NCBI GenBank assembly: GCA_964447005.1
Contig: CAYUQP010000009.1
Coordinates: forward strand, 38,752 to 102,751
Source: an uncultured Bacteroidales bacterium
Lineage (GTDB): Bacteria; Bacteroidota; Bacteroidia; Bacteroidales; JAGOPY01
Reading direction: 5' to 3'
Length of the DNA stretch: 64,000 nucleotides
This document shows, piece by piece, positions 4,558 to 50,117 of the stretch. The translations under genes were made by a program, and so were the position numbers. Within the stretch, counting starts at the first letter, position 1. Each line of letters starts with the position of its first letter. Under the pieces are notes generated by a model that saw nothing but the letters and a program-made list of their open reading frames with translations, ran no database searches and was not told where the DNA came from.

Positions 4558-5334
4558 ATGAAAACATTTAAAATCATTTTAGGATTATGTCTCTTTGTAA
4601 TTTCAATCGCAATAAACGCACAAGTTGCAATAAATGAAGACGGCAGTCCGCCGGATCCATCGGCAATGCTTGATGTAAAATCGTGGAACAAGGGATTGCT
4701 GCTTCCGAGGATTGATTATAACGACCGGCCTGATCCGGCGGCTCCCGGTCTGCTGATCTTTGTGACGTCCAATGGTCCGCTGGGCGATAACGCGTTGTAT
4801 CTCTTTGACGGTACAAACTGGAACAAGGTCCTCATGGAGACTGCGACCATCATTGGCACTGAAATGGAAGGCGGGATTGTTTTTTATCATGATGAGAACC
4901 AGGGATTCGGGCTGGTTTGCACCGAAGCAGATGAGGGGTACGCTGCATACGGCTGTTTCGGAACCCTGGTGGGGACAGATGGCCAGCATACGGAAATTGG
5001 TTTTGGCGAGGTGAATACCGATGCGATCCTGCAAGTGTGCAGTGATCCCGGAATTGCAGCTGATCTATGCGATCAGCTTGATCACAACGGCTATGATGAC
5101 TGGTTTCTTCCGTCACTGGATGAACTGCGTGAAATGTACACCTATAGAGCCGAAATCGGCGGCTTTTCAAATACTTTATACTGGACTTCAGCAGAGAGTA
5201 GTTATGGAACACCTCAGGAACAATCAGAAGGGGCCTGGATCGTGAATTTTAATAACGGAACCTACGGATGGACAGCCAAATCAGGCAACTTGCCGGTGCG
5301 CTGTATCAGAAAATACTATATTTATTTCGAATGA
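4558..5334 (+). CDS. Secreted DUF1566 (Lcl C-terminal domain) protein. Paralog 1 of the fibre N-terminal-module family.
   Basis: Signal peptide. The conserved N-terminal module SAMLDVKSWNKGLLLPRIDYNDRPDPAAPGLLIF is shared with ORFs at 40834, 42773 and 45907. The C-terminus DDWFLPSLDELREMY...YWTSAESS...GAWIVNFNNG...LPVRCIR is DUF1566-like. Confidence 0.65.
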   Translation: MKTFKIILGLCLFVISIAINAQVAINEDGSPPDPSAMLDVKSWNKGLLLPRIDYNDRPDPAAPGLLIFVTSNGPLGDNALYLFDGTNWNKVLMETATIIGTEMEGGIVFYHDENQGFGLVCTEADEGYAAYGCFGTLVGTDGQHTEIGFGEVNTDAILQVCSDPGIAADLCDQLDHNGYDDWFLPSLDELREMYTYRAEIGGFSNTLYWTSAESSYGTPQEQSEGAWIVNFNNGTYGWTAKSGNLPVRCIRKYYIYFE

Positions 5335-9252: not shown

Positions 9253-9459
9253 GGGAGGGAAATTTGAAATTCGAAATTAGGTTTTTTTCTCAACGAGTGG
9301 CAGAGATTTTATTCACAGATTTGCAGTGATATTCTTGAAATAAGTTTGCACTTTTAAACCGCATCCTGCTTCATCTCCACCTTTAACTGTAACATTCTTG
9401 CTTTTGCGACGTCATTTAACTAAATTTATAGTTGAAATACATCCTAAATCACTAACGCC

Positions 9460-10152: not shown

Positions 10153-10326
10153 AAAAATGATGGACGTCTGGCTATTTCCCTTCCGCGTAGCGGATCAAGT
10201 GCTGTAGCTGAATGCGAGGGGATACGTTACATTTTTCCCTGCGCAGTCATTCAAATTCACCACATTAGGCACATAGGACACATAGAACTCACAATAGGTT
10301 AGAAACCAGTTGATTATTCGGAAACC

Positions 10327-11058
10327 CTATTTAACTTTTCTCTGGTACTTACCTTTCTTCTCCAGGAGTTTTAATTGTGCAGCAGGTTTTGGTTTAATTA
10401 TCGCCGGAGTAATAAATGATTTTTCCTTTCTTCCTGCCTGTGAATGATTGCTGTATGTTTCCCATTCCGGATAATAATCATCCGCCTGGTTACCCCAACA
10501 TTCCCAGTTATGACGTGATCCCCGGGCAAAAAGCTCAAGATAAGGGCCCCAACTGCATGCCTCAATTAAATCATATTGCTCATCCGGTTTCCTGCTATGC
10601 TCCCGTTTTTGTTTAACAATCATATTCTCCTGTGTTCGACCGGGTTTCAGCGTTCTCGCATTTCGGCCTTTCACTCCGAATAAGATCAATTCAGTCACAT
10701 TTCTGAAATAAAATCCAACGCCTCTTCTGTCAGGGCCGCCGTCTTTCCTGATCTTGTACCACACTAGATTTGTTTTGTAGGTAAATCCCCATGCTTTCAT
10801 CACCTCCAATCCCTCTTTAAGTAATGCATTCGGGACCCAGAGATAGAGATGGGCTGATTCTTCCAGCATTTCACTGACAGGGATCTGCTTGATCTCTTCA
10901 AGCGTCAGCGTTGAATATCTTGATAAGCGCTTATGTTCAGGCGCCATTTTACCGGTGCGGTTCTCAAATTGCCATGGCGGATCCGCCAGAATGGTTGCAA
11001 ATTTCCGCCCGGCTGCAAACCTTCTGAAATCCTCCGCTGCTGAAATATTAGCCTTCAT
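10327..11058 (-). CDS. MT-A70-family (beta-class) N6-adenine DNA methyltransferase
   Basis: ILADPPWQFENR carries the DPPW catalytic motif. NCBI-style MT-A70 length of 243 aa. AT-rich relative to its flanks. Overlaps the upstream ORF by 11 nt. Confidence 0.8.
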   Translation of the reverse strand: MKANISAAEDFRRFAAGRKFATILADPPWQFENRTGKMAPEHKRLSRYSTLTLEEIKQIPVSEMLEESAHLYLWVPNALLKEGLEVMKAWGFTYKTNLVWYKIRKDGGPDRRGVGFYFRNVTELILFGVKGRNARTLKPGRTQENMIVKQKREHSRKPDEQYDLIEACSWGPYLELFARGSRHNWECWGNQADDYYPEWETYSNHSQAGRKEKSFITPAIIKPKPAAQLKLLEKKGKYQRKVK

Positions 11059-11671
11059 AATCTGTCAGGAGTTTTGTTGTTATGCCAAAAACCAGTACAG
11101 GACATCCTCCATTTCGCCCGGCTTCAAGTCGAGGCAGTAGTTTCCCCATATGCGTTGTACTTGCCCCGTATTTTGGCATGATCTCAAGCTTTCTGAACAA
11201 GGGATCAAGCTCATTACTTCTGGTTACAAGTACACCAACACTGATCGCATCATATTCGAAAAAGGCACGAAAAGCATAAAGATCCCTGTCAAAGGTTTGA
11301 TCTTTACTATTCCATTCCAGGTCAAATGCCACACGTCCTTTCAGGTAATCGACCTTGTGAGAACCGTGATTAATTGTGCTCTTCAGTTCTTGGGCCTTAC
11401 CTTTAACCTCATAAACTTTCAGTTCCGCGGACAGATTCTTTTCATTCCATCCCATTGGCCGAAGAATTTCAGAAAGAATCTTTGGAATATGACTTTCACT
11501 ACCCCCTGCTTCTATAATGTCACTTAAGCTAAACCTGAATTTCCCCAGCGCTTCACAAATTTCCTTAAACTCTTCAGGAAACTCATTAGCTAAAATAGCT
11601 GCTGCATGTTTAAAATCATGAACTTCGTATAAACCTTTGATATCCAAAGGAATATAATCTGTATACGTCAT
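11048..11671 (-). CDS. Putative type II restriction endonuclease, partner of the MT-A70 methylase
   Basis: It sits immediately upstream of the methylase and is translationally coupled to it. It shares the methylase's AT-rich composition. The segment RVAFDLEWNSKDQTFDRDL...VGVLVTR resembles the acidic catalytic core of BamHI/BglII-fold enzymes. There is no other recognisable family. Confidence 0.4.
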   Translation of the reverse strand: MTYTDYIPLDIKGLYEVHDFKHAAAILANEFPEEFKEICEALGKFRFSLSDIIEAGGSESHIPKILSEILRPMGWNEKNLSAELKVYEVKGKAQELKSTINHGSHKVDYLKGRVAFDLEWNSKDQTFDRDLYAFRAFFEYDAISVGVLVTRSNELDPLFRKLEIMPKYGASTTHMGKLLPRLEAGRNGGCPVLVFGITTKLLTDYEG

Positions 11672-11773
11672 CTGAATAAATATTAAAGATCAAGCGAAAT
11701 TACGAAAATGCCCTGATTTCAGATTATGATACCGTCTGCTCAGGATGAATCTTCTTTTCTTTCCGTCCCACCC

Positions 11774-14530
11774 TTATGAGCACTTCGAATCCCCGCAAGC
11801 CGTACACGTCACGCAGCCTTCTTTGAAGATCAGCGTGTCCTTCTCACCGCAATTGGGGCATTTTTCCTTGGATTTCGTCCCGTCGGGAATGTAGCGCTTC
11901 AGGGCGCGGACCACGCCGTTCTTCCAGGTGTTGATGGATTCGGACTCAAACTGCAGGTTATCGATGAGATGCACGACAAACGGCAGCGGCATGCCATGGC
12001 GCAGAATGCCGGAGATGAGCTTGGCATAATTCCAGAACTCGGTGTTGAACTGGTACGACAGCCCTTCCATGGTCACCTTGTAGCCGTATTTGTTCGTGTA
12101 AATGAAATCGTAACGTGAATTTACGTCATCCAGCTTGTTTTTCACCACCTGGCCATTCTTCACCCAGGTAGGAATGAAAAATCCTTCCGCTTCTCCGGTG
12201 AAGATCTCGTACGGGCGGTTGTCCAGCAGACCGATCACGGCAACCCACTTGTCCCTGTCATTCTGGAAATGCAGCACTTCGGCGTCGAGCACGCGGGGAC
12301 GTTTCGGGGCGGAGGTTTCACGGAACTCAAGTTCATCGCTCTTTTCCGGCTCTTTCTTCTTTTCGTCCTTCAGCAACACGCCGGAACGGCTGCCGTCCCT
12401 GTAGATCGTCATCCCCTTGCAGCCGCTTTCCCAGGCGGTCATGTAGATCTGGCTGACCAGGTCTTCCGTGGTTTCGGCAGGTACGTTCACCGTCACGCTG
12501 ATGGAATGGTCCACCCATTTCTGGATGGCGCCCTGCATCTTCACTTTGCTCAGCCAGTCGATATCATTTGACGTAGCGCGGTAATAGGGCGATTTCTCGA
12601 TCAGGCCGTTCAGCTCGTCTTCGTGGTAGGCTTTCACCACTGCCGGATCATACCCGTTGATGACCAGCCATTCTTCGAATTTCGGGTGGAACACGTTGTA
12701 TTCTTCCCATGAGTCACCGACCTCATCCACGAAGTCGACCCTGACGTCCAGGTCGTTCGGGTTCACTTTCCTTCTCCTGCGGTAGGAAACCATGAACACC
12801 GGCTCGATACCCGAGGACGTACGGGTGCAGATGCTCACGCTGCCGGTCGGGGCGATGGTGAGCATGGCGATATTGCGGCGGCCGTAGGTGACCATGTCCT
12901 GGTACAGTTGTTCGTCAGCCTCTTTGATCCGGAGGATGAACGGGTTGTCTTTTTCCCGTTCGGCGCTGTATACCGGGAAAGGCCCGCGGTCTTTTGCCAG
13001 CTCGACGGATGAACGGCAGGCTTCCAGGGCCAGTGTCTTATGCACTTCCGTAGAAAAACCGATGGCTTCGTCAGAGCCGTAACGCAGTCCAAGCGCGGCC
13101 AGCATATCGCCTTCGGCGGTGATGCCGATGCCGGTGCGGCGTCCCTGGATGCACTTCTCGCGGATGTTCATCCAGAGGTTCTTCTCGATGGCTTTAATGT
13201 CTTCTTCTTCGGGGTCGGTCTCGATCTTTTCCAGGATACGGTCGATCTTTTCCAGTTCCAGGTCGATGATATCGTCCATGATTCGCAGGGCGTACCTGGC
13301 GTGCTGGGTGAACAGCCCTCCGTTGAAGGTTGCATGCTGCGTGAAGGGCTGATCCACGTAGCTGAAAAGGTTGATCGCGATCAGGCGGCAACTGTCGTAC
13401 GGGCAGAGCGGGATCTCGCCGCAGGGATTGGTGCTGACGGTGGCAAAGCCCAGGTCGGCATAACAATCGGGCACTGCTTCGCGCTTGATGGTATCCCAGA
13501 AAAGTACGCCCGGTTCAGCCGATCTCCATGCATTGTGGATGATCTTGTTCCACAGGTGCATGGCATCGATTTCCTTCTGAAACTTCGGCTCCGGTGAGTT
13601 GACCGGGAACTGCTGCACGTATGGTGTATTGTTTTTGACCGCGTTCATGAACTCATCGTCGATCTTGACCGACACGTTGGCGCCGGTTACTTTTCCCTGT
13701 TCGAGTTTGGCGTCGATGAACATTTCGGCGTCAGGGTGCTTCGAGGAGATTGAAAGCATGAGCGCTCCCCGGCGTCCATCCTGCGCCACCTCGCGGGTGG
13801 AATTGGAATATCGCTCCATGAACGGCACAATGCCGGTGGAAGTCAGGGCGCTGTTCTTCACCGGGCTGCCGGTGGGACGGATGTGCGACAGGTCGTGCCC
13901 GACGCCGCCGCGCCGTTTCATGAGCTGCACCTGCTCCTGGTCGATCTTCATGATCCCGCCGTAGGAGTCGGAGTTGCCCTTGTTGCCGATGACAAAACAA
14001 TTTGATAAAGAACTGATCTGGAAATTATTGCCAATGCCTGCCATGGGGCCTCCCTGGGGTACGATGTACCGGAAATCCTTTAACAGGAAGTAGATCTCCT
14101 CTTCGCTGAGCGGGTTCGGGTACTTGGTCTCCACCCGGGCAATCTCCTTTGCCAGCCGGCGGTGCATATCGTCGGGTGTCAGCTCGAACAACTGGTTGGC
14201 ACTGTTCTTCAGGGCATATTTATTGATCCACACATTGGCGGCCAGGGTATCGCCTTTGAAATATACGGTTGATGCCTTCTGGACGTCTTCGTATTGGTAT
14301 GGTTCCAATTTGGGGATATCGGTTTGACCCCGAACGGCGCCCGAATTTTGTTTTTCCATTTCCTCCACAGGTGGTCGTTGTCGGCGTTCCAGCATATCAT
14401 GGAAATAATCGCTGCCTTGCTGCTTTGCCTGTTCCAGATCCTGCTCCGTCTGCAAACTGTCGAAAAGGGTGTTTTCCAGTTCTTTCATCTCACCTGTTTT
14501 GATAAATATTCCTAAATGATTATCATTCAA
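11774..14530 (-). CDS. nrdJ: Class II (adenosylcobalamin-dependent) ribonucleotide reductase
   Basis: The hallmark STNPCGEIPL active-site motif. 918 aa. C-terminal Cys4 zinc ribbon CPNCGEKDTLIFKEGCVTCTACGDSKC. Confidence 0.9.
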   Translation of the reverse strand: MNDNHLGIFIKTGEMKELENTLFDSLQTEQDLEQAKQQGSDYFHDMLERRQRPPVEEMEKQNSGAVRGQTDIPKLEPYQYEDVQKASTVYFKGDTLAANVWINKYALKNSANQLFELTPDDMHRRLAKEIARVETKYPNPLSEEEIYFLLKDFRYIVPQGGPMAGIGNNFQISSLSNCFVIGNKGNSDSYGGIMKIDQEQVQLMKRRGGVGHDLSHIRPTGSPVKNSALTSTGIVPFMERYSNSTREVAQDGRRGALMLSISSKHPDAEMFIDAKLEQGKVTGANVSVKIDDEFMNAVKNNTPYVQQFPVNSPEPKFQKEIDAMHLWNKIIHNAWRSAEPGVLFWDTIKREAVPDCYADLGFATVSTNPCGEIPLCPYDSCRLIAINLFSYVDQPFTQHATFNGGLFTQHARYALRIMDDIIDLELEKIDRILEKIETDPEEEDIKAIEKNLWMNIREKCIQGRRTGIGITAEGDMLAALGLRYGSDEAIGFSTEVHKTLALEACRSSVELAKDRGPFPVYSAEREKDNPFILRIKEADEQLYQDMVTYGRRNIAMLTIAPTGSVSICTRTSSGIEPVFMVSYRRRRKVNPNDLDVRVDFVDEVGDSWEEYNVFHPKFEEWLVINGYDPAVVKAYHEDELNGLIEKSPYYRATSNDIDWLSKVKMQGAIQKWVDHSISVTVNVPAETTEDLVSQIYMTAWESGCKGMTIYRDGSRSGVLLKDEKKKEPEKSDELEFRETSAPKRPRVLDAEVLHFQNDRDKWVAVIGLLDNRPYEIFTGEAEGFFIPTWVKNGQVVKNKLDDVNSRYDFIYTNKYGYKVTMEGLSYQFNTEFWNYAKLISGILRHGMPLPFVVHLIDNLQFESESINTWKNGVVRALKRYIPDGTKSKEKCPNCGEKDTLIFKEGCVTCTACGDSKCS

Positions 14531-38706: not shown

Positions 38707-40314
38707 TTAATTATCAAAATAAATCCATTTTCCATCCATTTCCTCCATGAAATGAACCACTGGCGGCCATAACGGCTTATGCAACGATTCCGACCAGTTA
38801 TCATGAATGCCAATGAGATCCCTGGCAAGCTTATTATCGGGTTGAAAAAGATTTGTAGTTTCATTGGGATCATCATTAATATTGAACAGCAGCGTATCGC
38901 CGAATTCACCATTCCAGATCACTTTCCAGTCGCCCGACCTGATGGCCCTGGTAGAACCGCGTTGCCAGAATAGTTCGCTGTGAGGTACGAGGCTGTCGTT
39001 ATTTAAATACGTAAGCAGGTTTTTTCCATCGACCTGCCTGGTTTCCGGCAATGGGCTACCGGTTGCCGCGGCGATGATGGGAAGGATATCCATCGCGCTG
39101 ACCGGCGGTGTGAAATTACTTCCGGCAGCAATCCTCCCGGGCCAGCTCATGAAAAAAGGCACTCTGATTCCCCCCTCGAAATCCGTGATCTTTCCCCCTT
39201 GCAACAGGCCGTTGTCGGTTGTATAAGTGTAAGTCGCACCGCCATTATCGCTTAAAAAGATCACCAGTGTATTTTCAAGAATTTCCTGACCTTTCAATTC
39301 ATTCAGCAAACGTCCAACCGCATCGTCGAGTTGTTTGATCATCGCATAATAGACCCTTTTAACCGGGTCCGGTTCGTCGTTGAACAGATCAACATATTCG
39401 TCCGGTGCCTGCAAAGGCGTGTGCGGGGCGTTGTACGAAGCAAAGAGAAAGAAAGGCTGGTCTTTGTGCTGACGGATAAATGCAATACTTTCTCTTGTGA
39501 TCGCATCGGTGAGGTGCTCTTTTTCATCGATGCTTTCATAATTCCGGAAAATGCCATTGGTATGGGTCCTGCCCCGTTTCCAGTTGTACTGGTCGGTAAA
39601 GTCTTTTTCGATCTTTTGATCGGTGATCCCCGGCGTTCCTTCGTGCGCATACATCGAATGCGCGTCGAAAAAGCCGTACTGGTAATCAAAGCCGAAAGCT
39701 GAAGGAAGGTTGCCGGGGTGTGATCCCGTGTGCCATTTTCCGATCAAAGCCGTAGCATAACCCCTGGCTTTGAGCAGGTCGGCGATGCTGATCTCAGATG
39801 GAGGGAGTCCCTGGCGTTCAATGTCATGCTTGCGCGGCACTTTATCCATCGGTCGGGCACGCCATATGTCGCTGGCCATGAAGTATTTGAAACCGAGGTA
39901 TTCCAGGCGGTTTCTTAGGTAGCGGTCGTGCATCTGGAATTCGAAGCCAAAACGCTGCGGGTAACGGCCGGTAAGCAGGGCGGCCCTCGAAGCACTGCAC
40001 ATCGGGGCGGCAACGTACGCCTGGCTGAACGCCACGCCGGCATTGGCAATGCCATCCATATTTGGCGTTTCAACCTTCTCTCCGCCATAAAACGACATGT
40101 CGTACAGGCCCAGGTCGTCGACCAGGATCAACACGATATTCGGCATGGAATCAGCAGGGTTGGCTTTCGGGATGTCATCGAGGAATTTCCGTTTGTCTTT
40201 TATTGCCGCTTCATCCCAGTTAATCGCGAAATCCTTTGATCTCAGCGGCCAAAGGAGGAAAGTGAGCAGCCCGGCGAGTACAATCAGGGTAATAATGAGA
40301 GTTCTTTTCAGCAT
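38707..40314 (-). CDS. Sulfatase (Cys-type, formylglycine-dependent)
   Basis: Signal/TM leader. NIVLILVDDLG. The CSASRAALLTGR (C-x-A/P-x-R) FGly motif. GKWHTG. Confidence 0.85.
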   Translation of the reverse strand: MLKRTLIITLIVLAGLLTFLLWPLRSKDFAINWDEAAIKDKRKFLDDIPKANPADSMPNIVLILVDDLGLYDMSFYGGEKVETPNMDGIANAGVAFSQAYVAAPMCSASRAALLTGRYPQRFGFEFQMHDRYLRNRLEYLGFKYFMASDIWRARPMDKVPRKHDIERQGLPPSEISIADLLKARGYATALIGKWHTGSHPGNLPSAFGFDYQYGFFDAHSMYAHEGTPGITDQKIEKDFTDQYNWKRGRTHTNGIFRNYESIDEKEHLTDAITRESIAFIRQHKDQPFFLFASYNAPHTPLQAPDEYVDLFNDEPDPVKRVYYAMIKQLDDAVGRLLNELKGQEILENTLVIFLSDNGGATYTYTTDNGLLQGGKITDFEGGIRVPFFMSWPGRIAAGSNFTPPVSAMDILPIIAAATGSPLPETRQVDGKNLLTYLNNDSLVPHSELFWQRGSTRAIRSGDWKVIWNGEFGDTLLFNINDDPNETTNLFQPDNKLARDLIGIHDNWSESLHKPLWPPVVHFMEEMDGKWIYFDN

Positions 40315-40833: not shown

Positions 40834-42699
40834 ATGAAATTGCAGATACTAATCGCCTGCACGATCCTGCTGGCCATAAATCTCCCGGCTTATTCGCAAA
40901 GTGTTATCGTATCGGAGAGCCCCAATCCCACGCCGGAACCTTCGGCCATCCTGGATGTGCAATCCACCACCAAGGGATTTCTCCCGCCGCGGCTGACATC
41001 TAATCAGAGGAACTCCCTGGCAAATCCTGCCACAGGCCTGGTGGTTTACGACACCGACATGCGCAAGTTGTATGTTTATGCCGGTGATTTCTGGACGCCG
41101 GTTATTTCGGGCGACCACTGGGTGCTGACGGAAGAAAACAATTTGATTTTCAACAATGGAGACATAGGTATCGGTACTGGATTTGACATTCCTTCAGCGC
41201 TGCTGCATGTGAATGGGACCGGAACGGGCGGAGGCAATGTGTTATTCAGCGGGGATTGGAAAAACACTCCTGGCCCGGCCCCGGTCATCAACGGAGGCAC
41301 CCGCTTAATGTGGTATCCTGACAAGGCGGCATTCAGGGCAGGACGTGTTTTGGGGGCCCAATGGAACACCGAAAACATAGGCAATTACTCATCCGCATCG
41401 GGCTATAATTCTACCGCATCCGGCCCGTATTCCAATGCCTGGGGATCTACAACCAACGCCTCAGGTTCTCAATCCTCCGCCTGGGGTTTCAATACGATCG
41501 CATCGGGAGCCAGTGCAACAGCATTTGGTGAAAGTACGACAGCACCATCTTTTGCTGAAACGGCTATTGGTTACAACAATACTATTTATACCCCTTCCAG
41601 TTCAACTACCTGGGTTGCCGAAGACCGGCTTTTTGTAATCGGTAACGGGTCAGCAGGCAGCAGCGATGCCCTGGTGATGCTGAAGAATGGAAATACAGGT
41701 TTGGGGATTTCTGAGCCCTTATATCGCTTTCATGCTGCCGGCAGCATATATGCCTCCACCTCCAACTGGGCCATCAGGGGCGTCAAGACCGGCACCACCG
41801 GGACATTTCCGGGGGTGTGGGGTGAAACGGAATCTGCATCAGCCAATGCGAGTGGCATCAGGGGATTTGTTAATAATACAGCTTCCGGGGCGGGTTCTGC
41901 CGGAGTGTATGGCAAGAATTTCAGCACCATAAATTCAAATTACGGTGTATTTGGAGAAGCCGTTTCAACGTCAGGCCGTGGGGTATATGGATATGCCTCT
42001 TCAGGGACCGGGACCACCTATGGCGTATATGGACATTCTGTCAGCGGTTCCGGAAGTGCAATTTATGGAATCAATACAAATAATGTAGGTGACGGAGTTA
42101 TTGGTGATGTAAGCGAATCTTATTTTGGAATTGCAGTCTGGGGGATCGGTCCCGCCGGAGGTGGCATTGGCGGGATGTTCACCGGGGATGTCGATGTATC
42201 GAGGAATCTATATGTGAGTGGAATGAAAAACTTTATGATCGATCATCCACTTGATCCAGCGAACAAAACACTTCTTCATTTCTGCATAGAAGGCCCCGAA
42301 CCTTATAATCTTTACCGCGGAACGGCCACCCTCGATGAAAGCGGATCATCATGGGTAACCCTTCCGGATTATTTCCATGCGATCAACATCGATTTCAGCT
42401 ACCAGTTAACGGCTGTCGGTGCGCCTATGCCCGATCTCCATATCGGGGCACCGGTCAGTGACGGGAAGTTCCTGGTCAGTGGGGGCGCCCCGGGTAAACA
42501 GGTTTGCTGGGAGGTGACGGCCCGTCGCAACGACCCCTGGGTACGCGATAATGGTTTCCAGACCGAAAGGCCTAAGCCCGAAGATGAACGGGGAACCTAT
42601 ATCTACCCGAAAGGTTATGGGCAGCCCGCTGAATTGCAAAGAGATTACAAACGAATCCAGCAAGCCAGGGGTGTGACTTCAAAAGAGATCAGCGATTAA
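40834..42699 (+). CDS. Secreted fibre/adhesin-like protein, paralog 2 of the N-terminal-module family. Gly/Ser-rich beta-helix repeats plus a conserved C-terminal IDHPLDP domain.
   Basis: Start at MKLQILIAC (40834) with signal peptide, not 40573. N-module SAILDVQSTTKGFLPPRLTSNQRNSLANPATGLVVYDTD. GVYG/GSG repeats. C-terminal NFMIDHPLDPANKTLLHFCIEGPEPYNLYRG. Confidence 0.6.
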   Translation: MKLQILIACTILLAINLPAYSQSVIVSESPNPTPEPSAILDVQSTTKGFLPPRLTSNQRNSLANPATGLVVYDTDMRKLYVYAGDFWTPVISGDHWVLTEENNLIFNNGDIGIGTGFDIPSALLHVNGTGTGGGNVLFSGDWKNTPGPAPVINGGTRLMWYPDKAAFRAGRVLGAQWNTENIGNYSSASGYNSTASGPYSNAWGSTTNASGSQSSAWGFNTIASGASATAFGESTTAPSFAETAIGYNNTIYTPSSSTTWVAEDRLFVIGNGSAGSSDALVMLKNGNTGLGISEPLYRFHAAGSIYASTSNWAIRGVKTGTTGTFPGVWGETESASANASGIRGFVNNTASGAGSAGVYGKNFSTINSNYGVFGEAVSTSGRGVYGYASSGTGTTYGVYGHSVSGSGSAIYGINTNNVGDGVIGDVSESYFGIAVWGIGPAGGGIGGMFTGDVDVSRNLYVSGMKNFMIDHPLDPANKTLLHFCIEGPEPYNLYRGTATLDESGSSWVTLPDYFHAINIDFSYQLTAVGAPMPDLHIGAPVSDGKFLVSGGAPGKQVCWEVTARRNDPWVRDNGFQTERPKPEDERGTYIYPKGYGQPAELQRDYKRIQQARGVTSKEISD

Positions 42700-42772
42700 T
42701 CATCTATTGGCTTATTGTTTTAAACACAAATTTGCTGATAGATACTATCCCCTACTGACAGCACAAATTGCT

Positions 42773-44542
42773 TTAGCGTCCTGAAAGCTCCTTTTCCAGG
42801 TTAGCCAGCTTTTCCATGAGCATGGCATTGGCCGCTTTCAGTTCTTCGATCTGGGCCTGCTGCTCCTGCATGCCTTTCACCAGCGGCACGACAAAATCGG
42901 CATAACGAAGGCCATACATGTCATTTTCATTTTTTGGCGCATCCACTCCGCTGAAACTGAAACCAAGATTCTCTGCTGCTGCTTCCACCTCCTGTGCGAT
43001 GAAACCCGTGGTGACCCCGGAGTATCTTTCTCCGGAAGAGAATTCCATACCGGGTTGCTGACTTCGAATCTCGGTGTGCCGCGCTGTTACCCCGGTAAAC
43101 TCGTTGAGCGCCTCCCGGTCGATCCGGTAGGTCACAGGCCTCAGTTGCGTGATAAAGCTCAGCCCAGGTATATTCTCATCGACATCTTCCTTGAACCTTC
43201 CGTCAGATAACGTGGTCCAGCCTACATTGCCACCAATAGAATTGACAAAGCTATTACCGATCCGCACCATATCTGTCGCTGTCGCCGTGGCGTCAGTCCC
43301 AATGCAGGTGGTATTGCTGATATTGTTGACACTGGGCCCGGTGTTATAACCCACCGCGGTATTCCAGGAACCGCTGGCGTTGGTGACCATGGAGTACGCT
43401 CCCATTGACGTGTTGAAGAACCCGGTATTGGTGTTGTAGGCTGATTGGAAGCCGGCAGCCGTATTGGAATATCCGATGGTATTGTTCAACAGGGCAAAGG
43501 TGCCGACTGCCGTGTTATTGATCCCGTTTGAAGTGGATGTGGGCTGGTTGTTATACAGCGCGCTCAGACCTACCGCCACGTTGTCTGAATTAAAAGTGGT
43601 GCCGGGGGTATAATTCTGAAGAGCCAGGGCATTCACGCCCAGGGCCGTGTTACGGCTGCCACGGGTGTTGATAACAAGGGAATTATAACCAGTACTTGTG
43701 TTCGAGCTACCATCGAAACTCCCGTTCTGAGAATAGTTTCCCACAGCCACGTTTGCCCAGCCGCTGGCATTGTTGTATAAGGCATTGAAACCCATCGCTG
43801 TATTATGATAACCCGTCCCGTTGTTGCGCAATGCATAACTTCCGATCGCGATATTTTTGCTACCATTACTGATGCTCATCGGCTGGTTGAGCAGTAAAGC
43901 TTCGGAACCCAGGGCAATGTTGTGACTGGGCCATGAATAGCCCGGATCGTAGCTTTGCATATACAATGCATAGTTACCTATGGAAATATTGGTGGAGGAT
44001 GCCTGGTTCGACAGGAGAGAATAGGTTCCAATCGCAATATTTTCGTAGCCAATGGTGTTGTTTTGCATGCTTTCAGAACCGACTGAGGTATTCCGTGCTT
44101 CGGTTGTATTGCCATTCAGCGCGTTTTGACCAAAAGCGGTATTGGAACCCTGGCTGGGATTTGGCAAAGCATTGTAACCAAAAGAAGTGTTGAAGAGCGC
44201 CGGAACAATACTACCTGAGTTGGTATTGTTAACCTTAAAATAGATCGGGACATTATCCGTGGTTCCGATAAAATTCGTACCCGCAACAGTGCCGGCATTT
44301 CCTGAAATGCCCCAGTAATCTGTGCCCCCGACCTTGGTCCATTGCGGTGTAGTTGTAGTTCCGGCGTTGTAATAAAATCCGGGATCACTATTCGTCTGAT
44401 AGATTATCAGGCCGGTGGCGGGGCTTGCAATAGCGTTGCGTTCCGTTACGGTCATTCGCGGGATAAGCACCCCTTTGTTATCGGATGAAATGTCGAGCAG
44501 CGCACTGTTGTCAGCGGTGGCATTGCTGCTATTGATGGCCAC
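42773..44542 (-). CDS. Tail-fibre-domain protein, paralog 3. Asn/Gly-rich triple-beta-helix-like repeats plus a C-terminal S74 intramolecular-chaperone (endosialidase chaperone) domain and coiled coil.
   Basis: N-module SALLDISSDNKGVLIPRMTVTERNAIASPATGLIIYQTN. Repeats NTA.G..AL..N. The C-terminal DGRFKEDVDENIPGLSFITQLRPVTYRIDREA...GFIAQEVE segment and the coiled coil are typical of Peptidase_S74 chaperone domains. The ORF as given starts at GTG. The upstream in-frame ATG (44614) is separated by a TAG. Confidence 0.65.
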   Translation of the reverse strand: MAINSSNATADNSALLDISSDNKGVLIPRMTVTERNAIASPATGLIIYQTNSDPGFYYNAGTTTTPQWTKVGGTDYWGISGNAGTVAGTNFIGTTDNVPIYFKVNNTNSGSIVPALFNTSFGYNALPNPSQGSNTAFGQNALNGNTTEARNTSVGSESMQNNTIGYENIAIGTYSLLSNQASSTNISIGNYALYMQSYDPGYSWPSHNIALGSEALLLNQPMSISNGSKNIAIGSYALRNNGTGYHNTAMGFNALYNNASGWANVAVGNYSQNGSFDGSSNTSTGYNSLVINTRGSRNTALGVNALALQNYTPGTTFNSDNVAVGLSALYNNQPTSTSNGINNTAVGTFALLNNTIGYSNTAAGFQSAYNTNTGFFNTSMGAYSMVTNASGSWNTAVGYNTGPSVNNISNTTCIGTDATATATDMVRIGNSFVNSIGGNVGWTTLSDGRFKEDVDENIPGLSFITQLRPVTYRIDREALNEFTGVTARHTEIRSQQPGMEFSSGERYSGVTTGFIAQEVEAAAENLGFSFSGVDAPKNENDMYGLRYADFVVPLVKGMQEQQAQIEELKAANAMLMEKLANLEKELSGR

Positions 44543-44781
44543 TCCTTGTGAATATCCCTGGTATATACAGAATAGACCAGTGGCTAGAAAAATAAAACGC
44601 TATTTAAGCTTCATGGTAAAATTTTTAAAAATGATGATCAGGGGAAGAAATTGCGGTAAAATTAAGTCCTCTTGCCGGATAAATTTGTTAATGAACTGTT
44701 AAATACATGAGTGAAGGCATCTAGCGTGCGTGTGCTACTTCAGGGAGATTTCCTTTGGCCGAAAGAAGCAAAATCATGAAA

Positions 44782-45684
44782 TTATTTGCGGTGGCTAAAT
44801 GACGATTTCCCCAGGATCAGCCACATCGGCCCGGCGATAGTCAAGGCCCCTCCGACAAGCTGGTATCCCAGGGGGAAGCGGCCAAAGACCAGGAAAGCGC
44901 CAATGAGCACGAAAAGGGCCGTAGTGCTCTGAATGATGGCCAGCCGCGTTGCTTCAATATATTTCAGCGCGCTGTACTGCCCTATGGACGTGAGAAACGG
45001 CCCGAGAAAAGAGCCGATCGCGATGTTTATTAAGGCACGCCATGGAATGACCGGGCTTTGTTTCAGAAACACAAGCATTATAATTGAAAGGGCCAGCAGG
45101 AAATAAGCCCTGTTGATAGCCAGGACGGTTGGAGAAAAATGATGGATATTGCTCTTGACCATAATGGTTCTGAAGCCGTAGAAAACAGTCGAAACCAGCA
45201 TCAGACCCGAGGTGCCGGTGAAATAAGACCCTGGAGCGGCCCCTCTGTTATAGCTGATCACCATCGCTCCCAGGAACGTGAGCGCCGCCCCGGCCGCTTC
45301 TTTTCTTGATAATTTTTCATGCAGCAGGAAAACGCCCAGCAAAGTGACAAAAATATATTCCATGTTTCGCAGGAACGACGGAATCGCCGGGTTGGCCGCC
45401 AGTTGTATTGCCGCGTAAAATGCGGTGGTGGCAATTAGTTCCAGCAGACCGATCGCAATTAGCATTTTATATGTCCCGGAAGCGATGCGGTGCAGTTTCG
45501 GAGTATTTGACGGCACGAGGGCGTATAAATAATTCCAGAACAACGCGAATGCAAACCAGTACACGCCAAATTGCGGCAAGGTAACCTGTTGAAAAGCAGA
45601 TTTGCTGAAGATATAAACCGTGGAGCCGGCTACTGTAGCCAGCAACGCAAGGGAATAACCTTTCAGTCGGCTGTCGGTGATCAC
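44782..45684 (-). CDS. DMT-superfamily (EamA-like) transporter
   Basis: 10 predicted TM helices in two EamA-like halves. 300 aa. Confidence 0.7.
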   Translation of the reverse strand: MITDSRLKGYSLALLATVAGSTVYIFSKSAFQQVTLPQFGVYWFAFALFWNYLYALVPSNTPKLHRIASGTYKMLIAIGLLELIATTAFYAAIQLAANPAIPSFLRNMEYIFVTLLGVFLLHEKLSRKEAAGAALTFLGAMVISYNRGAAPGSYFTGTSGLMLVSTVFYGFRTIMVKSNIHHFSPTVLAINRAYFLLALSIIMLVFLKQSPVIPWRALINIAIGSFLGPFLTSIGQYSALKYIEATRLAIIQSTTALFVLIGAFLVFGRFPLGYQLVGGALTIAGPMWLILGKSSFSHRK

Positions 45685-45906
45685 TGCATCTGCATTGAAG
45701 ACGCAAATGTAAGGTGTTTATTGAAGGAGAAGGTACCTGAGCGTATTACATCATTTGCGGGTATTTCCTAAATCGCTGTTATCACCTATTTAGAAACTAC
45801 TTTAACGCTCCGGAAAATTGTATCCATTAGTAATTTATTAACAATATTTTAACAAAATCTATTTTTTCTTTCGTATATTTTTACGGCGAAAAAACTATTT
45901 AAAGCA

Positions 45907-47019
45907 ATGAGACCCCGTTTCTTAATTGGATTGATCGTTATATTTCTCTATCCGTTCAAAGTCATGATGTCACAGGGAGTGGCCATTGCACCCGGGCAGA
46001 CTGTTCCGCATTCCAGTGCCCTTCTTGATGTGCAGGGAAACAGTAAAGGTGTGCTTATTCCCCGGCTCACCTATCAGCAACGTAATGCTATCCCGGAGCC
46101 TGCCAACGGACTCCTGGTTTTTTTGACTAACGACAGCTCATTCTATTATCATCATGGCGGCGTTTGGTTCAGGATACCGAATGACCAAAACGCGAGTGAA
46201 CTCTGGATCGACCAGAATGAGAACATTCTCAGCCGTAACAGCGCCAACCAGGCCATTACCGGCTCGTCCAATATCATCATTGGCAAGAATGCATTCCAGG
46301 ATAATGGGGGAGGCTCCAATTATGTCACTGCCATCGGATTTGAAGCAGCCAGAAATGATCAGACTATCGGAGACACCTATCTGACGGCCATTGGCTACAA
46401 ATCAGCTTACAGCAATAGCGGGAATGATGTAATAGCCCTGGGGTATGGAAGTGCATACAATAATAATAAGGATAACGTTATAGCCATCGGTAACCAGGCA
46501 GGAGCTGCAAATACGGGATTCCAACTGATGGCCCTCGGCGGACTTGCCGGCGCCAACAATTCAGGAGGATTCTTACATGCACTTGGAGCCACGGCCGGAA
46601 AAAACAACAGTGGATTGAGCGTTAACGCCTTCGGCGGTGGCGCTGCGGAATTCAACACCGGCAATTACGTCAATGCTTTCGGTAACCTCAGCGGGCGAAA
46701 CAATACCCATAACCACGTGAATGTGATAGGCGCTTTTATTGATGACGCGCCGCAGGACGAAGCCACCATCCTTACCGGTGACCTTTTTCTGCGGGATCCT
46801 TATTACACCGGGACTGACACCACCGGAAACAAGCTGCAGTTTCAAAACGGGACGACGCTGATGAGCCCGGCCGACAGTGTGCTACAGATCATCGACGTAC
46901 TCCGTCTGCCCCCTCGTAACAGTGCGCCTCCTACGCCTGTAAAAGGTATGATTTACTTCGACGATGCCCTCTCAAAACTTTTAGTCTGGGATGGAACGGC
47001 ATGGCAGTCCTGCTGGTAA
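45907..47019 (+). CDS. Secreted fibre-like protein, paralog 4. Gly/Asn-rich repeats.
   Basis: Signal peptide. N-module SALLDVQGNSKGVLIPRLTYQQRNAIPEPANGLLVF. Repeats of NxxAxG...G. The C-terminal KGMIYFDDALSKLLVWDGTAWQ resembles the conserved module tail. Confidence 0.6.
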   Translation: MRPRFLIGLIVIFLYPFKVMMSQGVAIAPGQTVPHSSALLDVQGNSKGVLIPRLTYQQRNAIPEPANGLLVFLTNDSSFYYHHGGVWFRIPNDQNASELWIDQNENILSRNSANQAITGSSNIIIGKNAFQDNGGGSNYVTAIGFEAARNDQTIGDTYLTAIGYKSAYSNSGNDVIALGYGSAYNNNKDNVIAIGNQAGAANTGFQLMALGGLAGANNSGGFLHALGATAGKNNSGLSVNAFGGGAAEFNTGNYVNAFGNLSGRNNTHNHVNVIGAFIDDAPQDEATILTGDLFLRDPYYTGTDTTGNKLQFQNGTTLMSPADSVLQIIDVLRLPPRNSAPPTPVKGMIYFDDALSKLLVWDGTAWQSCW

Positions 47020-47115
47020 CGTAACCTCGGAAATTTACAGTTGCCAAATGACAATGGACGATGATCCATGTAAATGGTCCATCGTCCATGTTCAATCGTC
47101 CATCGTCCATGTTTG

Positions 47116-47189
47116 TGGGCCCACCTGGGCTCGAACCAGGGACCTACTGATTATGAGTCAGTTGCTCTAACCGACTGAGCTATAGGCCC
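47116..47189 (-). tRNA. tRNA with CAT anticodon (elongator Met or lysidine-modified Ile2). No encoded CCA.
   Basis: On the minus strand the sequence reads GGGCCTA-TA-GCTCAGTCGGTTAGAGC-A-ACTGA-CTCATAA-TCAGT-AGGTC-CCTGGTTCGAGCCCAGG-TGGGCCC-A. The anticodon stem lacks the initiator 3xGC signature. The overall sequence is Ile-like. Confidence 0.85.
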
Positions 47190-47199
47190 GAACTTCGTG

Positions 47200-47318
47200 A
47201 TTTAACGATTTGCCGGTTTGTCGATTTAACGATTTGCCGGTTTGTCGATTTTCGATTTTCGATTGTCGATTGTCGATTTTCGATTTTCGATTTTCGATTT
47301 TCGATTGTCGATTTCGGG
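47200..47318. repeat. Tandem array of octamers gatttaac / gattttc / gattgtc (about 14 units) next to the tRNA
   Basis: Direct reading. Also (catcgtc)-type units at 47062-47112 on the other side of the tRNA. Confidence 0.75.
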
Positions 47319-47561: not shown

Positions 47562-50117
47562 TTACCTTTGTTTTATAATTCTTACATTTTGAACATGGCC
47601 ACCTTGCTGGATTTTCATGATATAAATCCCGGCTTTAAGGTCAGCGCCCATGGTAAACTCCTGTTCAACGGCGATCTCTTTGATCTCCTGCATGATCTTC
47701 CCGCTCAGGTCATATATTAGAACTGATGCTGGTTCAGCAGATTCCGATTCAACAATCACTTTGAAATCAGATGTGGAAGGATTCGGGTAAATGATCGCTG
47801 AGAATTCATGATCATGCGAGTCAACCAGTTCCCCTGCCGTGATGCTGGTCTTCAGGTTATCGCAGCTCTGGTCGCAGGCTCCCAGTTGATCACCTTCATG
47901 ATTCCCCAGGTGAGCAGGTACTGCATTGACACTGATGGACAGGGTCTGCGGATTTTCAGGATTACCTGGCGGCACATGGCACAGGTAAACTTTTTTACCA
48001 TTGGTGCCGGGTACGCGGATATCCAGGACACAGATCGTAATGGTGCAGGTTGAAGAACATCCGAATTCGTTGGTGACCGTCAGCGTGAAATCATAGTTGC
48101 CTTCGGCCGCCGGGGTGAACACCGGTGCTGCGCAATCGCTGCAGCTCAGACCGTCAGACGGGCTCCAGGAATATGTGAATGCCGATCCGCCGGTGGCTGT
48201 ACCTGACAGGGTCACATTCTGCGGGCCATAGCCAATATAAATGGTCGTTTCCGGGCCGCCGGTATAAGGACCGACGCCGGGAATTGCTTCAATGGAGCAG
48301 GAAGGAACCTCCCCGACCACCGTTACATTGGCCGAACAGGTGGAACTGTTCCCGGAAGCGTCTGTAACCGTCAGTATAACAGGAACAACGCCGATATCCT
48401 CGCAACTGAATGTCTCCTGTGATAGTGAAATGGAAACAATACCGCAATTATCCGTTGATCCTGCATCGACGTCGGATGCAGTAACCGATGCGGTGCCACC
48501 GGCCAGCGTAACAGTAACATCCTGGCATGCAGCCATAGGATATTCACTATCGACTACTGTGACATCAAAGGAGCATGAAGATGCGTTGCCTGCGGCGTCA
48601 ACTGCCTCATAGCTGACCGTAGTGGTTCCCACCGGGAAAACTTCACCGGAATACAGACCTGACAGCAGGTAAAGCGGTGTGCCTTCAACCTCGAGAATGT
48701 ATGGATTAGGCGTCCAGCCGGGCAGGTCACTGGGGAGGTCATTCCATTTCAATGAGCCGCCAATATTGAGATAATTGGCATAATGCTCCGTTCCGCCGGC
48801 AGCATTGTTCGGTTCTCCTGCATGCCAGTCAGTGAATGAATAAGCCTCGCAGGTGACCCATTTCCAGTCTCCTTCCGCTTCAGCATCGGAAAATCCGATC
48901 CATGGACTGGAATTTTCCAGACCATTGGCAAAAAGGCCATATACGATAAGATCGTTTTCCTCCTGGGAGGTTACGGCAGCCATGTGCAGACCGTTAGCAC
49001 GGGAATCTGCCAGGGCGCCATGCCAGGTGAATGAAGCATTGGAAATAAAATAGCTGCTGTTTTCCAACGTGCCGAGATAGGTAAATCCCGGAAGGGAATT
49101 GACCGTGCATCTGTCTGTTGAGGTCACATTATAACAAACCCGGGCTCCGCATTGTCCCGGGTCGCTATATACCGTAATATCACCGGGGCAGTTGATAACA
49201 GGAGCTTCTTCATCCAGATCGTTGGTTACCTCAATGGTGAAGTCGCTTTGGCAACCGTTGCCGTCGGTCACGGTGACGGAATAGGTCCCGGCAACCAAAC
49301 CTGAAATATCTTCAGTGGTTGCGCCATTGCTCCATGTGTAGCTGAAGGGAGGAATACCACCTGCCGGATCCAGGTCGATCGCACCATTATTATAATCAGG
49401 ACAGGAAGGGCTGGTGACGGTGTAGGAACCTTCTTCAGTAAAGCTGACATTGCTGATGCAAACTGTCTGGAAATTGATCGCCGCACCCGTTGCTGCGGTA
49501 AAGCCCCAGAAAACATTGGCGTTGCCGCCGAAGATATTGGTAACAATATCGTTCGTGTAGTCGATCAACAGGTTGCCATCAAACCAGACTTTCAGATTAT
49601 TAATTCCGGCATTCCATGATATGGTAAAAGGGTGGTTCGTTCCGTTTTCCATATTGGGAAGTAAAACAGGTCCCTGCAGATTATTTGCCGTGTTGTGGCT
49701 GACCACCCCGTTTCTCATGAGGGCAACGTGATCGGCAGCCGGATCGGCAAATTCACCGTTTTGCCAGGTATCGAACTCCACCGCCAGTGAAGGCGAAATT
49801 CCCTGGTAGCCGATCCCTCCGCCTACGACTCCAAGACCGCTGCAGATCGGTTGAAGGACGAAGGCTATTCCATCAGCACCGCCACCATCAATAGAACCCA
49901 GGTTAAGGGTGCCTGTCACCGTAATATCACTATTAAGTGTTACCTTGTTCTGAAACCAGACCGATCCCACCTGGAAATAATTAGCTGGAGTAAGCTGGAA
50001 ACAGTCATTGCCAAGACTGATGGCATTTCCGTTGATCACATATTGCGACCATCCGGCAAAAGGGAGCATAAAAAGCATGCTCAACGCTAAAAAATAAACA
50101 CGTAATTTTTTCATCAT
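47562..50117 (-). CDS. Multidomain T9SS-secreted lectin/adhesin with legume-lectin-like N-domain, HYR/Ig-like domains, C-type lectin domain and T9SS CTD
   Basis: Signal peptide. The N-terminal ConA-like lectin region is AFVLQP...GGGIGY. CPGDITVY...C HYR-like repeats. The C-type lectin segment WIGFSDAEAEGDWKWV...WHAGEPNNAAGGTEHYANY carries an EPN motif. The C-terminal T9SS CTD is ...GIYIMKIQQGGHVQNVRIIKQR. Confidence 0.7.
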   Translation of the reverse strand: MMKKLRVYFLALSMLFMLPFAGWSQYVINGNAISLGNDCFQLTPANYFQVGSVWFQNKVTLNSDITVTGTLNLGSIDGGGADGIAFVLQPICSGLGVVGGGIGYQGISPSLAVEFDTWQNGEFADPAADHVALMRNGVVSHNTANNLQGPVLLPNMENGTNHPFTISWNAGINNLKVWFDGNLLIDYTNDIVTNIFGGNANVFWGFTAATGAAINFQTVCISNVSFTEEGSYTVTSPSCPDYNNGAIDLDPAGGIPPFSYTWSNGATTEDISGLVAGTYSVTVTDGNGCQSDFTIEVTNDLDEEAPVINCPGDITVYSDPGQCGARVCYNVTSTDRCTVNSLPGFTYLGTLENSSYFISNASFTWHGALADSRANGLHMAAVTSQEENDLIVYGLFANGLENSSPWIGFSDAEAEGDWKWVTCEAYSFTDWHAGEPNNAAGGTEHYANYLNIGGSLKWNDLPSDLPGWTPNPYILEVEGTPLYLLSGLYSGEVFPVGTTTVSYEAVDAAGNASSCSFDVTVVDSEYPMAACQDVTVTLAGGTASVTASDVDAGSTDNCGIVSISLSQETFSCEDIGVVPVILTVTDASGNSSTCSANVTVVGEVPSCSIEAIPGVGPYTGGPETTIYIGYGPQNVTLSGTATGGSAFTYSWSPSDGLSCSDCAAPVFTPAAEGNYDFTLTVTNEFGCSSTCTITICVLDIRVPGTNGKKVYLCHVPPGNPENPQTLSISVNAVPAHLGNHEGDQLGACDQSCDNLKTSITAGELVDSHDHEFSAIIYPNPSTSDFKVIVESESAEPASVLIYDLSGKIMQEIKEIAVEQEFTMGADLKAGIYIMKIQQGGHVQNVRIIKQR

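What the first reader, a model, noticed from the sequence alone, without database searches (positions are those of the whole stretch)
40834..47019. Cluster of three paralogous secreted fibre proteins, with a fourth at 4558, sharing one N-terminal module but carrying different C-terminal domains
Seen in sequence. All four have a signal peptide, then a QxVAI segment. They then share about 55 aa of clear homology: SA[ILM]LD[VI].S..KG.L.PR[LMI]T...RN[AS][IL]..PA.GL[LIV][VIF][YF]. After that the proteins diverge completely. P1 (4558) ends in a DUF1566/Lcl-like domain. P2 (40834) has a GVYG/GSG-rich repeat region and an IDHPLDPANK...YNLYRG domain. P3 (42773) has Asn/Gly-rich beta-helix repeats plus an S74 intramolecular-chaperone domain, which is established in phage endosialidase tail spikes and fibres. 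P4 (45907) has glycine-rich repeats and a VWDGTAWQ tail. Three of the four sit within 6 kb and end at a tRNA(CAU) with flanking tandem repeats. Inference: a cassette-like family of phage-tail-fibre-like surface fibres. The common N-module may be an anchoring or assembly adaptor, and the variable C-terminal domains may be receptor-binding tips. It may be a hotspot for recombination-driven diversification.
Basis: partly seen in the sequence, partly recalled or inferred. Interest (0 to 1): 0.65.

Follow-up and report, generated by a model that had tools for sequence, protein, structure and literature searches.

The report
Four secreted phage-fibre-like proteins
Four genes of an uncultured Bacteroidales bacterium encode exported, phage-tail-fibre-like proteins that share one catalogued ~70-residue module (Pfam PTL_trimer) and carry different distal domains, so this is a real but fairly ordinary example of a very large, uncharacterised fibre family.

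Summary
Exactly four ORFs in the window share a ~70-aa module: P1 4558-5334(+), P2 40834-42699(+), P3 42773-44542(-) and P4 45907-47019(+). Pairwise BLASTP gives 1e-10 to 1e-14. An HMM built only from database proteins gives 1e-22 or better. Similarity stops after the module.

One correction: P3's signal peptide carries an in-frame TAG at codon 5, identical in five assemblies.

The module is not new. Precomputed Pfam annotation calls it PF26696 "PTL_trimer". It has 53,328 representative proteins, named ones mostly Bacteroidota, often with 3-11 copies per protein.

- In viral contigs it forms the extreme C-terminus of tail-fibre-like ORFs in 57 of 74 cases.
- P4 also ends in a half-copy.
- Its AF2 model (pLDDT 94) weakly resembles phage tailspike parts and collagen XV/XVIII trimerisation domains.

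The distal domains are Lcl_C/DUF1566 (P1), YadA-like head repeats plus a pyocin-fibre-like knob (P2) and a beta-helix plus S74 chaperone with SDGRFK (P3).

A relative with ~90% nucleotide identity lacks P2, P3 and P4 between conserved flanks, so the genes are accessory. The paralogues share no DNA-level similarity, so I found no sign of recent cassette recombination.

Best reading: Sec-exported trimeric fibres with variable binding tips. Surface localisation is unproven.

The parts
4558..5334 (+). P1, 258 aa. Signal peptide (cleavage predicted INA|Q), PTL_trimer module (aa 22-92, nt 4621-4833), then Lcl_C/DUF1566 domain (aa 167-251, nt 5056-5310).
40834..42699 (+). P2, 621 aa. Signal peptide; PTL_trimer module (nt 40897-41109); YadA-like head repeats (aa ~161-297, nt 41314-41724); GVYG/GSG-rich repeats (nt ~41851-42183); C-terminal IDHPLDP... 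beta-sandwich domain (nt ~42229-42633).
42773..44614 (-). P3. The open frame of 589 aa runs from the GTG at 44542. The original ATG at 44614 is followed by an in-frame TAG at 44602-44600 inside the signal peptide. It carries the PTL_trimer module (nt 44318-44542), Asn/Gly-rich beta-helix repeats (nt ~43208-44245), the Peptidase_S74 intramolecular chaperone beginning with SDGRFK at aa 446 (nt 42962-43207), and a C-terminal coiled-coil-like tail.
45907..47019 (+). P4, 370 aa. Signal peptide; PTL_trimer module (nt 45973-46182); ~14-residue Gly/Asn/Ala repeats (nt ~46234-46776); C-terminal half-copy of the module (aa 340-368, nt 46924-47010).
44782..45684 (-). EamA-family transporter gene lying between P3 and P4. 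It is conserved in relatives and was used as the synteny anchor. It is not part of the fibre family.
47065..47314 (-). tRNA-Met(CAT) at 47115-47189 with tandem repeats on both sides. In relative L006 the tRNA 3' end is duplicated around a 1.4-kb insert.

Best explanation
P1-P4 are stand-alone chromosomal genes of a Bacteroidales bacterium. They encode Sec-exported fibre proteins related to phage tail fibres.

Proposed sequence of events:
1. Signal peptidase I cuts just before a Gln (the Bacteroidetes Q-rule). The ~70-residue PTL_trimer module then forms the mature N-terminus.
2. The module acts as a compact trimerisation or registration unit. It brings three chains together as they emerge N-terminus first from the Sec channel. 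Phages place the same module at the C-terminal end of cytoplasmically folded tail fibres. That is the position taken in other fibres by a foldon or an S74 chaperone.
3. Behind the module comes a repetitive beta-roll or beta-helix shaft.
4. The distal domain differs in each protein. P1 has a DUF1566/Lcl_C lectin-like domain. P2 has a pyocin-fibre-like knob. P3 has an S74 chaperone that should cut itself off at Ser446. P4 has a half-module. These domains give each protein its own binding specificity.

The genes are accessory and vary between close relatives. P3 currently lacks a working export signal.

Shown: the homology, the domain content, the distribution, the presence/absence difference, and the C-terminal placement of the module in phage ORFs.

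Inferred: the trimeric state, the direction-of-folding argument, adhesin or binding function, and the final location of the proteins.
For: - Module homology.
- The module is Pfam PF26696 'PTL_trimer' in precomputed annotation for P2, P3 and P4.
- Distribution is 53,328 representatives at E <= 1e-3. Among the top 150 hits, each has 3-11 copies, and 100 of 150 have a copy directly after the signal peptide.
- Foldseek finds homologues in uncultured phage proteins, with 26-43% identity and TM 0.69-0.79.
- In 57 of 74 viral ORFs the module is within 5 residues of the stop codon. 5 of 7 sampled ORFs match tail fibre, tail spike or virion PHROGs.
- P4 has a C-terminal half-copy.
- P3's body matches phage tail fibres and spikes but its N-module does not.
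- S74 hit plus the SDGRFK motif.
- P2 has trimeric-autotransporter-like head repeats and a knob-like C-terminal domain.
- Q-rule: PMC5837995. All four have Gln at the predicted cleavage site.
- Accessory status.
Against: - Only a monomer could be modelled.
- P3 and homologues such as P0140 carry both the module and an S74 chaperone. The module is therefore not the only folding device.
- None of the four has a known route across the outer membrane (no T9SS CTD, lipobox or autotransporter barrel). They could remain periplasmic.
- P3's TAG shows that at least one copy is dispensable or decaying.
- Variability rests on a single syntenic relative.
Confidence: 0.6

Rival explanations
1. The module is a ligand-binding domain, for example glycan-binding, rather than a trimerisation unit. 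Phages would use it as the distal receptor-binding tip. The bacterium would use it at the N-terminus to stick the exported fibre onto its own surface polysaccharide.
For: - The module sits at the extreme C-terminal, distal position in 57 of 74 viral fibre ORFs.
- Charged residues (D, K, R, R) are conserved in the alignment.
- Tandem copies could give multivalent binding.
- The four proteins have no other recognisable anchor.
Against: - Receptor-binding tips are usually the most variable part of a fibre. This module is strongly conserved across more than 50,000 representatives and between phages and bacteria.
- The Pfam curators named it a trimer domain.
- The fold matches are trimerisation or shaft parts, not lectins.
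- Distinct binding-type domains sit at the other end of P1 and P2.
Confidence: 0.2
2. The genes are leftovers of a prophage, tailocin or contractile injection system. They would encode, or once have encoded, real tail fibres of a particle.
For: - P3 has strong PHROG and phage hits.
- The cluster lies next to a tRNA, and the relative has an att-like duplication at that tRNA.
- The genes are absent in the relative.
Against: - Signal peptides are present on P1, P2 and P4. P3 carries a disrupted one, which is incompatible with cytoplasmic particle assembly.
- No phage structural, integrase or lysis genes lie within 10 kb. The neighbours are PntAB, a sulfatase, EamA, a hybrid kinase and DUF3857.
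- GC content is not anomalous.
- P4 lies outside the att-bounded segment.
- P1 is 36 kb away in an unrelated context.
Confidence: 0.05
3. The proteins are periplasmic or vesicle-borne rather than displayed on the cell surface. For example, they could act as decoys or binders of incoming material. The 'surface fibre' picture would then be wrong even though the fold assignment is right.
For: None of the four has a T9SS CTD, a lipoprotein signal or an autotransporter anchor. The neighbouring 851-aa and 374-aa proteins, in contrast, show T9SS-type C-termini.
Against: No positive evidence was found. Homologues carry source names such as 'cell wall anchor protein' and 'trimeric autotransporter adhesin', but these are automatic annotations.
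Confidence: 0.15

Closest known systems
Pfam PF26696 PTL_trimer family
   Same: P2, P3 and P4 carry precomputed PF26696 hits. All 120 listed database proteins found with the four-module profile carry it. P1 matches an HMM built from those proteins at 1e-22.
   Different: I could retrieve nothing about the family beyond its name. It is absent from the local Pfam copy and from the searchable literature. Its function is not documented in anything I could read.
Phage tail fibres and tailspikes with a C-terminal Peptidase_S74 intramolecular chaperone (endosialidase type; for example Bacillus phage SPO1 gp2.52 and Pelagibacter phage tail fibres)
   Same: P3 residues ~110-583 align at ~30% identity to these proteins and to phrog_4636 'tail spike protein' at 4e-64. 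The S74 domain is above the Pfam threshold, and the Ser-x4-Lys motif SDGRFK is present at aa 446.
   Different: P3 has a disrupted signal peptide plus PTL_trimer where the phage proteins have their virion-attachment N-terminus. The cultured-phage hits do not cover residues 1-110. There is no phage context.
Trimeric autotransporter adhesins (YadA, Ata, BpaC, Fusobacterium CbpF)
   Same: P2 residues 178-297 resemble their head repeats (E 4e-4 to 7e-3; NF033481 Ata 1e-3). Both are exported trimeric fibres with modular heads and stalks.
   Different: There is no C-terminal YadA-anchor beta-barrel in any of the four proteins. Polarity is also different: here the common module is N-terminal and the variable domain is C-terminal.
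R-type pyocin fibre and phage fibre C-terminal knob domains (PA0620 6cl6/6cu2, AP22 gp53 4mtm, cyanophage Pam1 tailspike RBD 7eea)
   Different: Sequence identity is only 10-17%. The domain has no Pfam family even in the newer precomputed annotation. Its relatives include proteins without the N-module and from other phyla, for example a Chthonomonadaceae protein.
Lcl_C / DUF1566 proteins (Legionella collagen-like adhesin Lcl; HbP1, PDB 8q4e)
   Same: The P1 C-terminus matches Lcl_C above threshold, the C-terminal end of NF046116 adhesin_Lcl and HbP1 at 1.7e-5.
   Different: P1 has no collagen-like repeats. It uses PTL_trimer as the presumed oligomerising part. It scores far below the Lcl equivalog cutoff (33 against 500 bits).

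Membership tests
Pfam PF26696 PTL_trimer | Significant match to the family profile | tested here: met
   Precomputed hits exist for P2, P3 and P4. P1 was tested indirectly: an HMM from 120 PF26696-annotated proteins gives 85 bits and 1e-22. The Pfam model itself was not available locally.
Pfam PF26696 PTL_trimer | Forms a homotrimer, as the name implies | not testable with these tools
Peptidase_S74 intramolecular chaperone fibres (P3) | S74 domain above the Pfam gathering score | tested here: met
   34.1 bits against a cutoff of 22, residues 446-527.
Peptidase_S74 intramolecular chaperone fibres (P3) | Catalytic Ser and Lys five residues apart at the start of the domain (established for endosialidase; from my own knowledge) | tested here: met
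   SDGRFK at residues 446-451. Autocleavage itself is not testable here.
Lcl_C / DUF1566 (P1) | Domain match above the Pfam gathering score | tested here: met
   42.3 bits against 34.9, residues 167-251.
Trimeric autotransporter adhesin | C-terminal YadA-type membrane anchor barrel | tested here: not met
   No anchor family appears in Pfam or NCBIfam for any of the four at E <= 0.1. Only a head-repeat resemblance is seen, in P2.
T9SS cargo protein | C-terminal Por_Secre_tail-type sorting domain | tested here: not met
   No hit in Pfam, NCBIfam or the precomputed annotation. The same annotation does find PF18962 in a nearby gene of locus L025.
Virion or tailocin tail fibre | Encoded within a tail/baseplate gene module and lacking a Sec signal | tested here: not met
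   The neighbours are metabolic, transport and regulatory genes. Signal peptides are seen in the sequences.
Diversity-generating retroelement target (considered for the P1 DUF1566 domain) | Nearby template repeat matching the variable region, and a reverse transcriptase | tested here: not met
   No repeat of the P1 coding sequence lies within window 1-12000. The reverse transcriptase was not searched for explicitly.

The most novel reading that the evidence does not exclude
The same small module may act as a direction-matched folding nucleus. It would sit at the C-terminus in cytoplasmically folded phage fibres, where folding zips C to N. It would have been moved to the mature N-terminus, directly behind the Q-rule cleavage site, in Sec-exported Bacteroidota fibres, where the N-terminus emerges first. 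On this reading a very large uncharacterised class of Bacteroidota extracellular trimeric fibres is built on it and reaches the surface by a route that is neither T9SS, lipoprotein export nor autotransport.
Probability: 0.2. Interest if true: 0.55.

Novelty: new member of a known kind. Interest (0 to 1): 0.3.

Why it matters
The shared module belongs to a very large family: more than 50,000 sequence clusters, mostly in Bacteroidota, with relatives in phages. The family has a Pfam entry, but I could find no experimental characterisation and no paper.

These four genes are a compact natural example of one module combined with four different distal domains. A closely related genome lacks three of them. 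That makes them convenient material for two questions: does the module really trimerise, and how do such fibres leave the cell? The four genes alone do not change what is known.

Tried and rejected
- **Local Pfam scan of the module and of database homologues.** There were no hits because PF26696 is not in the local copy.
- **Literature searches.** Searches for PF26696, PTL_trimer, 'PTL domain' and 'tail fiber domain-containing protein' in Bacteroidota found nothing.
- **PDB sequence searches.** The module profile, P3 and P4 gave nothing meaningful.
- **AFDB Foldseek.** The library was unavailable.
- **Synteny in 18 more distant EamA loci.** Nothing is conserved beyond EamA, so they say nothing about the locus. 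Only L006 was informative.
- **Gene conversion or cassette recombination among the paralogues.** I rejected this because blastn finds at most ~75% identity over ~50 nt, at the conserved motif only.
- **Horizontal-transfer signal from base composition.** None was found.
- **Assembly error as the cause of P3's TAG.** I rejected this because five independent assemblies agree. They are all the same strain, however, so selection cannot be judged.
- **Signal-peptide bias as the source of the similarity.** I rejected this because of internal copies in other proteins and C-terminal copies in phages.
- **Cultured phage genomes.** Only 3 of 50,697 records hold the module, so its phage presence is mainly in uncultured viral contigs.
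- **Rfam.** It finds only the two tRNAs.
Full report
**1. What is in the sequence**

The ORF listing and translations give four proteins:

| Protein | Coordinates | Length |
|---|---|---|
| P1 | 4558-5334 (+) | 258 aa |
| P2 | 40834-42699 (+) | 621 aa |
| P3 | 42773-44542 (-) | 589 aa, counted from a GTG |
| P4 | 45907-47019 (+) | 370 aa |

- An alignment of the N-termini shows 19 invariant positions and 53% mean column identity.
- Pairwise BLASTP E-values are 1e-10 to 1e-14 and cover only the first ~90 residues. Beyond that there is nothing, apart from a weak P3-P4 repeat match.
- An HMM of the four modules, run on all six reading frames of the window, finds these four and no fifth copy.

The shared module is therefore real and specific.

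**2. Corrections to the observation**

- P3's signal peptide is broken. The sequence reads ATG AAG CTT AAA TAG and then continues in the same frame as RFIFLATGLFCIYQGYSQ GVAIN.
- This is a point nonsense mutation in an otherwise intact gene.
- The same TAG is present in five independently assembled contigs from other samples. They are 100% identical over the 161-nt stretch around the P3 start that I aligned. This rules out an assembly error but says nothing about selection.
- P1, P2 and P4 have ordinary signal peptides.
- In all four proteins a Gln sits at the predicted signal peptidase I site (INA|Q, AYS|Q, GYS|Q, MMS|Q). That is the Bacteroidetes Q-rule (PMC5837995).
- The 'QxVAI' segment is the first beta-strand of the module, not part of the leader. 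The same VAIN strand precedes internal copies in other proteins, and the AF2 model places a strand at residues 3-5.

**3. The module is already catalogued and very widespread**

- All 120 listed database proteins found with the four-module profile carry the precomputed Pfam family PF26696.
- Gene tables name that family PTL_trimer and assign it to P2, P3 and P4.
- The local Pfam copy lacks the model. I found no paper mentioning it.
- An exhaustive profile search of 1.84 billion cluster representatives gives 53,328 proteins at E <= 1e-3 and 30,850 at E <= 1e-10.
- Named hits are Bacteroidota: Bacteroidales, Saprospiraceae, Ferruginibacter, Niastella and Crocinitomicaceae.
- The 150 best hits each carry 3-11 copies, often hundreds of residues into proteins of up to 4,024 aa. 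In 100 of the 150 the first copy follows the signal peptide directly.
- Examples include P0140, with four tandem copies and then an S74 domain, and P0205, with three copies and then a different Cys/Trp-rich C-terminal region that I did not identify.

**4. Fold of the module**

- With a 124-sequence alignment, AF2 gives pLDDT 94.4. The fold is small: five short strands and one helix.
- The PDB sequence search is empty.
- Foldseek against predicted viral structures gives true homologues in uncultured Caudovirales proteins, with 26-43% identity and TM 0.69-0.79. Some carry collagen repeats, S74 or T7-fibre annotations.

**5. Position of the module in phages**

- A scan of IMG/VR confirmed 122 viral loci, and 80 were fetched.
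- Among 74 unique ORFs with the module, 57 have it within five residues of the stop codon. Only 7 have it at the N-terminus.
- These ORFs start like phage fibres (MANKKISELT..., MAVKFSQF...).
- 5 of 7 sampled ORFs match tail fibre, tail spike or virion PHROGs.
- An HMM from the 54 distinct viral C-terminal copies matches the four N-modules at 1e-15 to 1e-28. It also matches P4's last residues 340-368 as a half-copy (17.8 bits, i-E 1e-7).
- Among cultured phage genomes the module is rare: 3 of 50,697 records.

**6. The distal parts**

- **P1.** It has Lcl_C/DUF1566 above threshold. It also matches the C-terminal end of the Lcl adhesin model and PDB 8q4e HbP1.
- **P2, head.** Residues 178-297 resemble YadA-like head repeats of trimeric autotransporters.
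- **P3.** Residues ~110-583 align to annotated tail fibres and spikes of Pelagibacter, Bacillus (SPO1 gp2.52), Staphylococcus and cyanophages at ~30% identity. The N-module is not covered. phrog_4636 'tail spike protein' scores 4e-64. S74 is above threshold and begins with SDGRFK at residue 446, the Ser/Lys arrangement known from endosialidase chaperones (the motif comes from my own knowledge).
- **P4.** It has ~14-residue Gly/Asn/Ala repeats between the N-module and the C-terminal half-module.

**7. Context and variability**

- The window matches a Bacteroidales MAG (GCA_029556325.1) and several metagenome assemblies.
- Neighbours within 10 kb are PntAB, a sulfatase, a small PAS-like ORF, EamA, a hybrid kinase/AraC regulator, DUF3857 and T9SS-tailed proteins. 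There are no phage genes.
- Using EamA as a probe, one relative keeps synteny. This is L006, Bacteroidales bin Go_SlDig_bin_433, with about 85-91% nucleotide identity in shared segments.
- In L006 EamA abuts the small ORF, so P2 and P3 are absent.
- In L006 the repeat next to the tRNA lies ~30 bp from EamA's start, so P4 is absent.
- The sulfatase is also replaced there.
- L006 instead holds a 1.4-kb insert encoding a 400-aa ORF. I read it as ATPase-like from the sequence and did not test that. The insert lies between the tRNA-Met 3' end and a second copy of that end, an att-like duplication. P4's position lies outside that segment.
- The other 18 EamA loci share no synteny and are uninformative.
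- Within the genome the four genes share no DNA similarity beyond ~50 nt at 75%, and their GC content is unremarkable. There is no sign of recent recombination among them.

**8. Interpretation**

The data support exported, phage-fibre-like, probably trimeric proteins. One conserved module is combined with different shafts and distal domains, and the genes are accessory.

Three observations fit an oligomerisation or registration unit better than an anchor: the module's strong conservation, its tandem use, and its terminal placement in phage fibres.

I propose, as inference, that its placement at the mature N-terminus suits proteins that enter the periplasm N-terminus first. Its C-terminal placement in phages would mirror the role of foldons and S74 chaperones.

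The main rival is that the module binds a conserved surface ligand. I could not exclude this without multimer modelling or experiments.

How the proteins would cross the outer membrane is unknown. None has a T9SS C-terminal domain, a canonical lipobox or an autotransporter barrel.

**9. Verdict**

It describes members of a catalogued though unstudied family, with known kinds of distal domains. Interest is modest.

Noticed in passing
window 44600-44614 (minus strand): There is an in-frame TAG at codon 5 of P3's signal peptide, with the same reading frame before and after it. The remaining 589 codons are intact. The TAG is identical in five assemblies from different samples. This is either a very recent pseudogene or a copy now made without an export signal.
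   Followed up: partly
window 4373-4447 and 4466-4505; second copy at 1796-1870 and 2077-2116: A two-part palindromic intergenic element (88-90% identity between copies) lies just upstream of P1 and upstream of the ORF at 2220-2903. The two halves are 18 nt apart in one copy and 206 nt apart in the other. Each half holds a short hairpin (CCAACG...CGTTGG and CCGACG...CGTCGG). There is no Rfam match.
   Followed up: partly
window 47065-47314; L006 1935-3471: The tRNA-Met(CAT) is flanked by 7-nt tandem repeats on both sides. In relative L006 the tRNA 3' end plus the start of the repeat is duplicated around a 1.4-kb insert that carries a 400-aa ATPase-like ORF (L006 2104-3306, minus strand). This looks like an att-site duplication without an integrase.
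   Followed up: partly
IMG/VR loci L033-L108, e.g. L036 4915-6201 and 6526-8256, L065 2356-4257 and 4264-6177: In viral contigs the same module forms the very C-terminus of tail-fibre-like ORFs (57 of 74). Often two adjacent fibre genes both end in it.
   Followed up: yes
window 38707-40314: The sulfatase gene next to the cluster is also missing at the syntenic position of relative L006. A 230-aa signal-peptide-bearing ORF (L006 4838-5530) takes its place. The whole stretch between pntA and the tRNA is therefore a patchwork of accessory genes.
   Followed up: partly
window 47562-50117 (minus strand); L025 4411-6982: The 851-aa protein with a T9SS-type C-terminus next to the tRNA is one ORF in the window. 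In the otherwise identical contig L025 it is called as two overlapping genes (468 + 398 aa). That suggests a frameshift difference between assemblies.
   Followed up: no
proteins P0121, P0124, P0128, P0130, P0142: Some of the largest multi-copy homologues (1,700-4,000 aa) start with a hydrophobic N-terminus resembling a pilin or pseudopilin leader (for example GNIFFVLFGAVAVVGLLG) instead of a Bacteroidota signal peptide. This hints that the module is also used outside Bacteroidota and in other secretion contexts.
   Followed up: no
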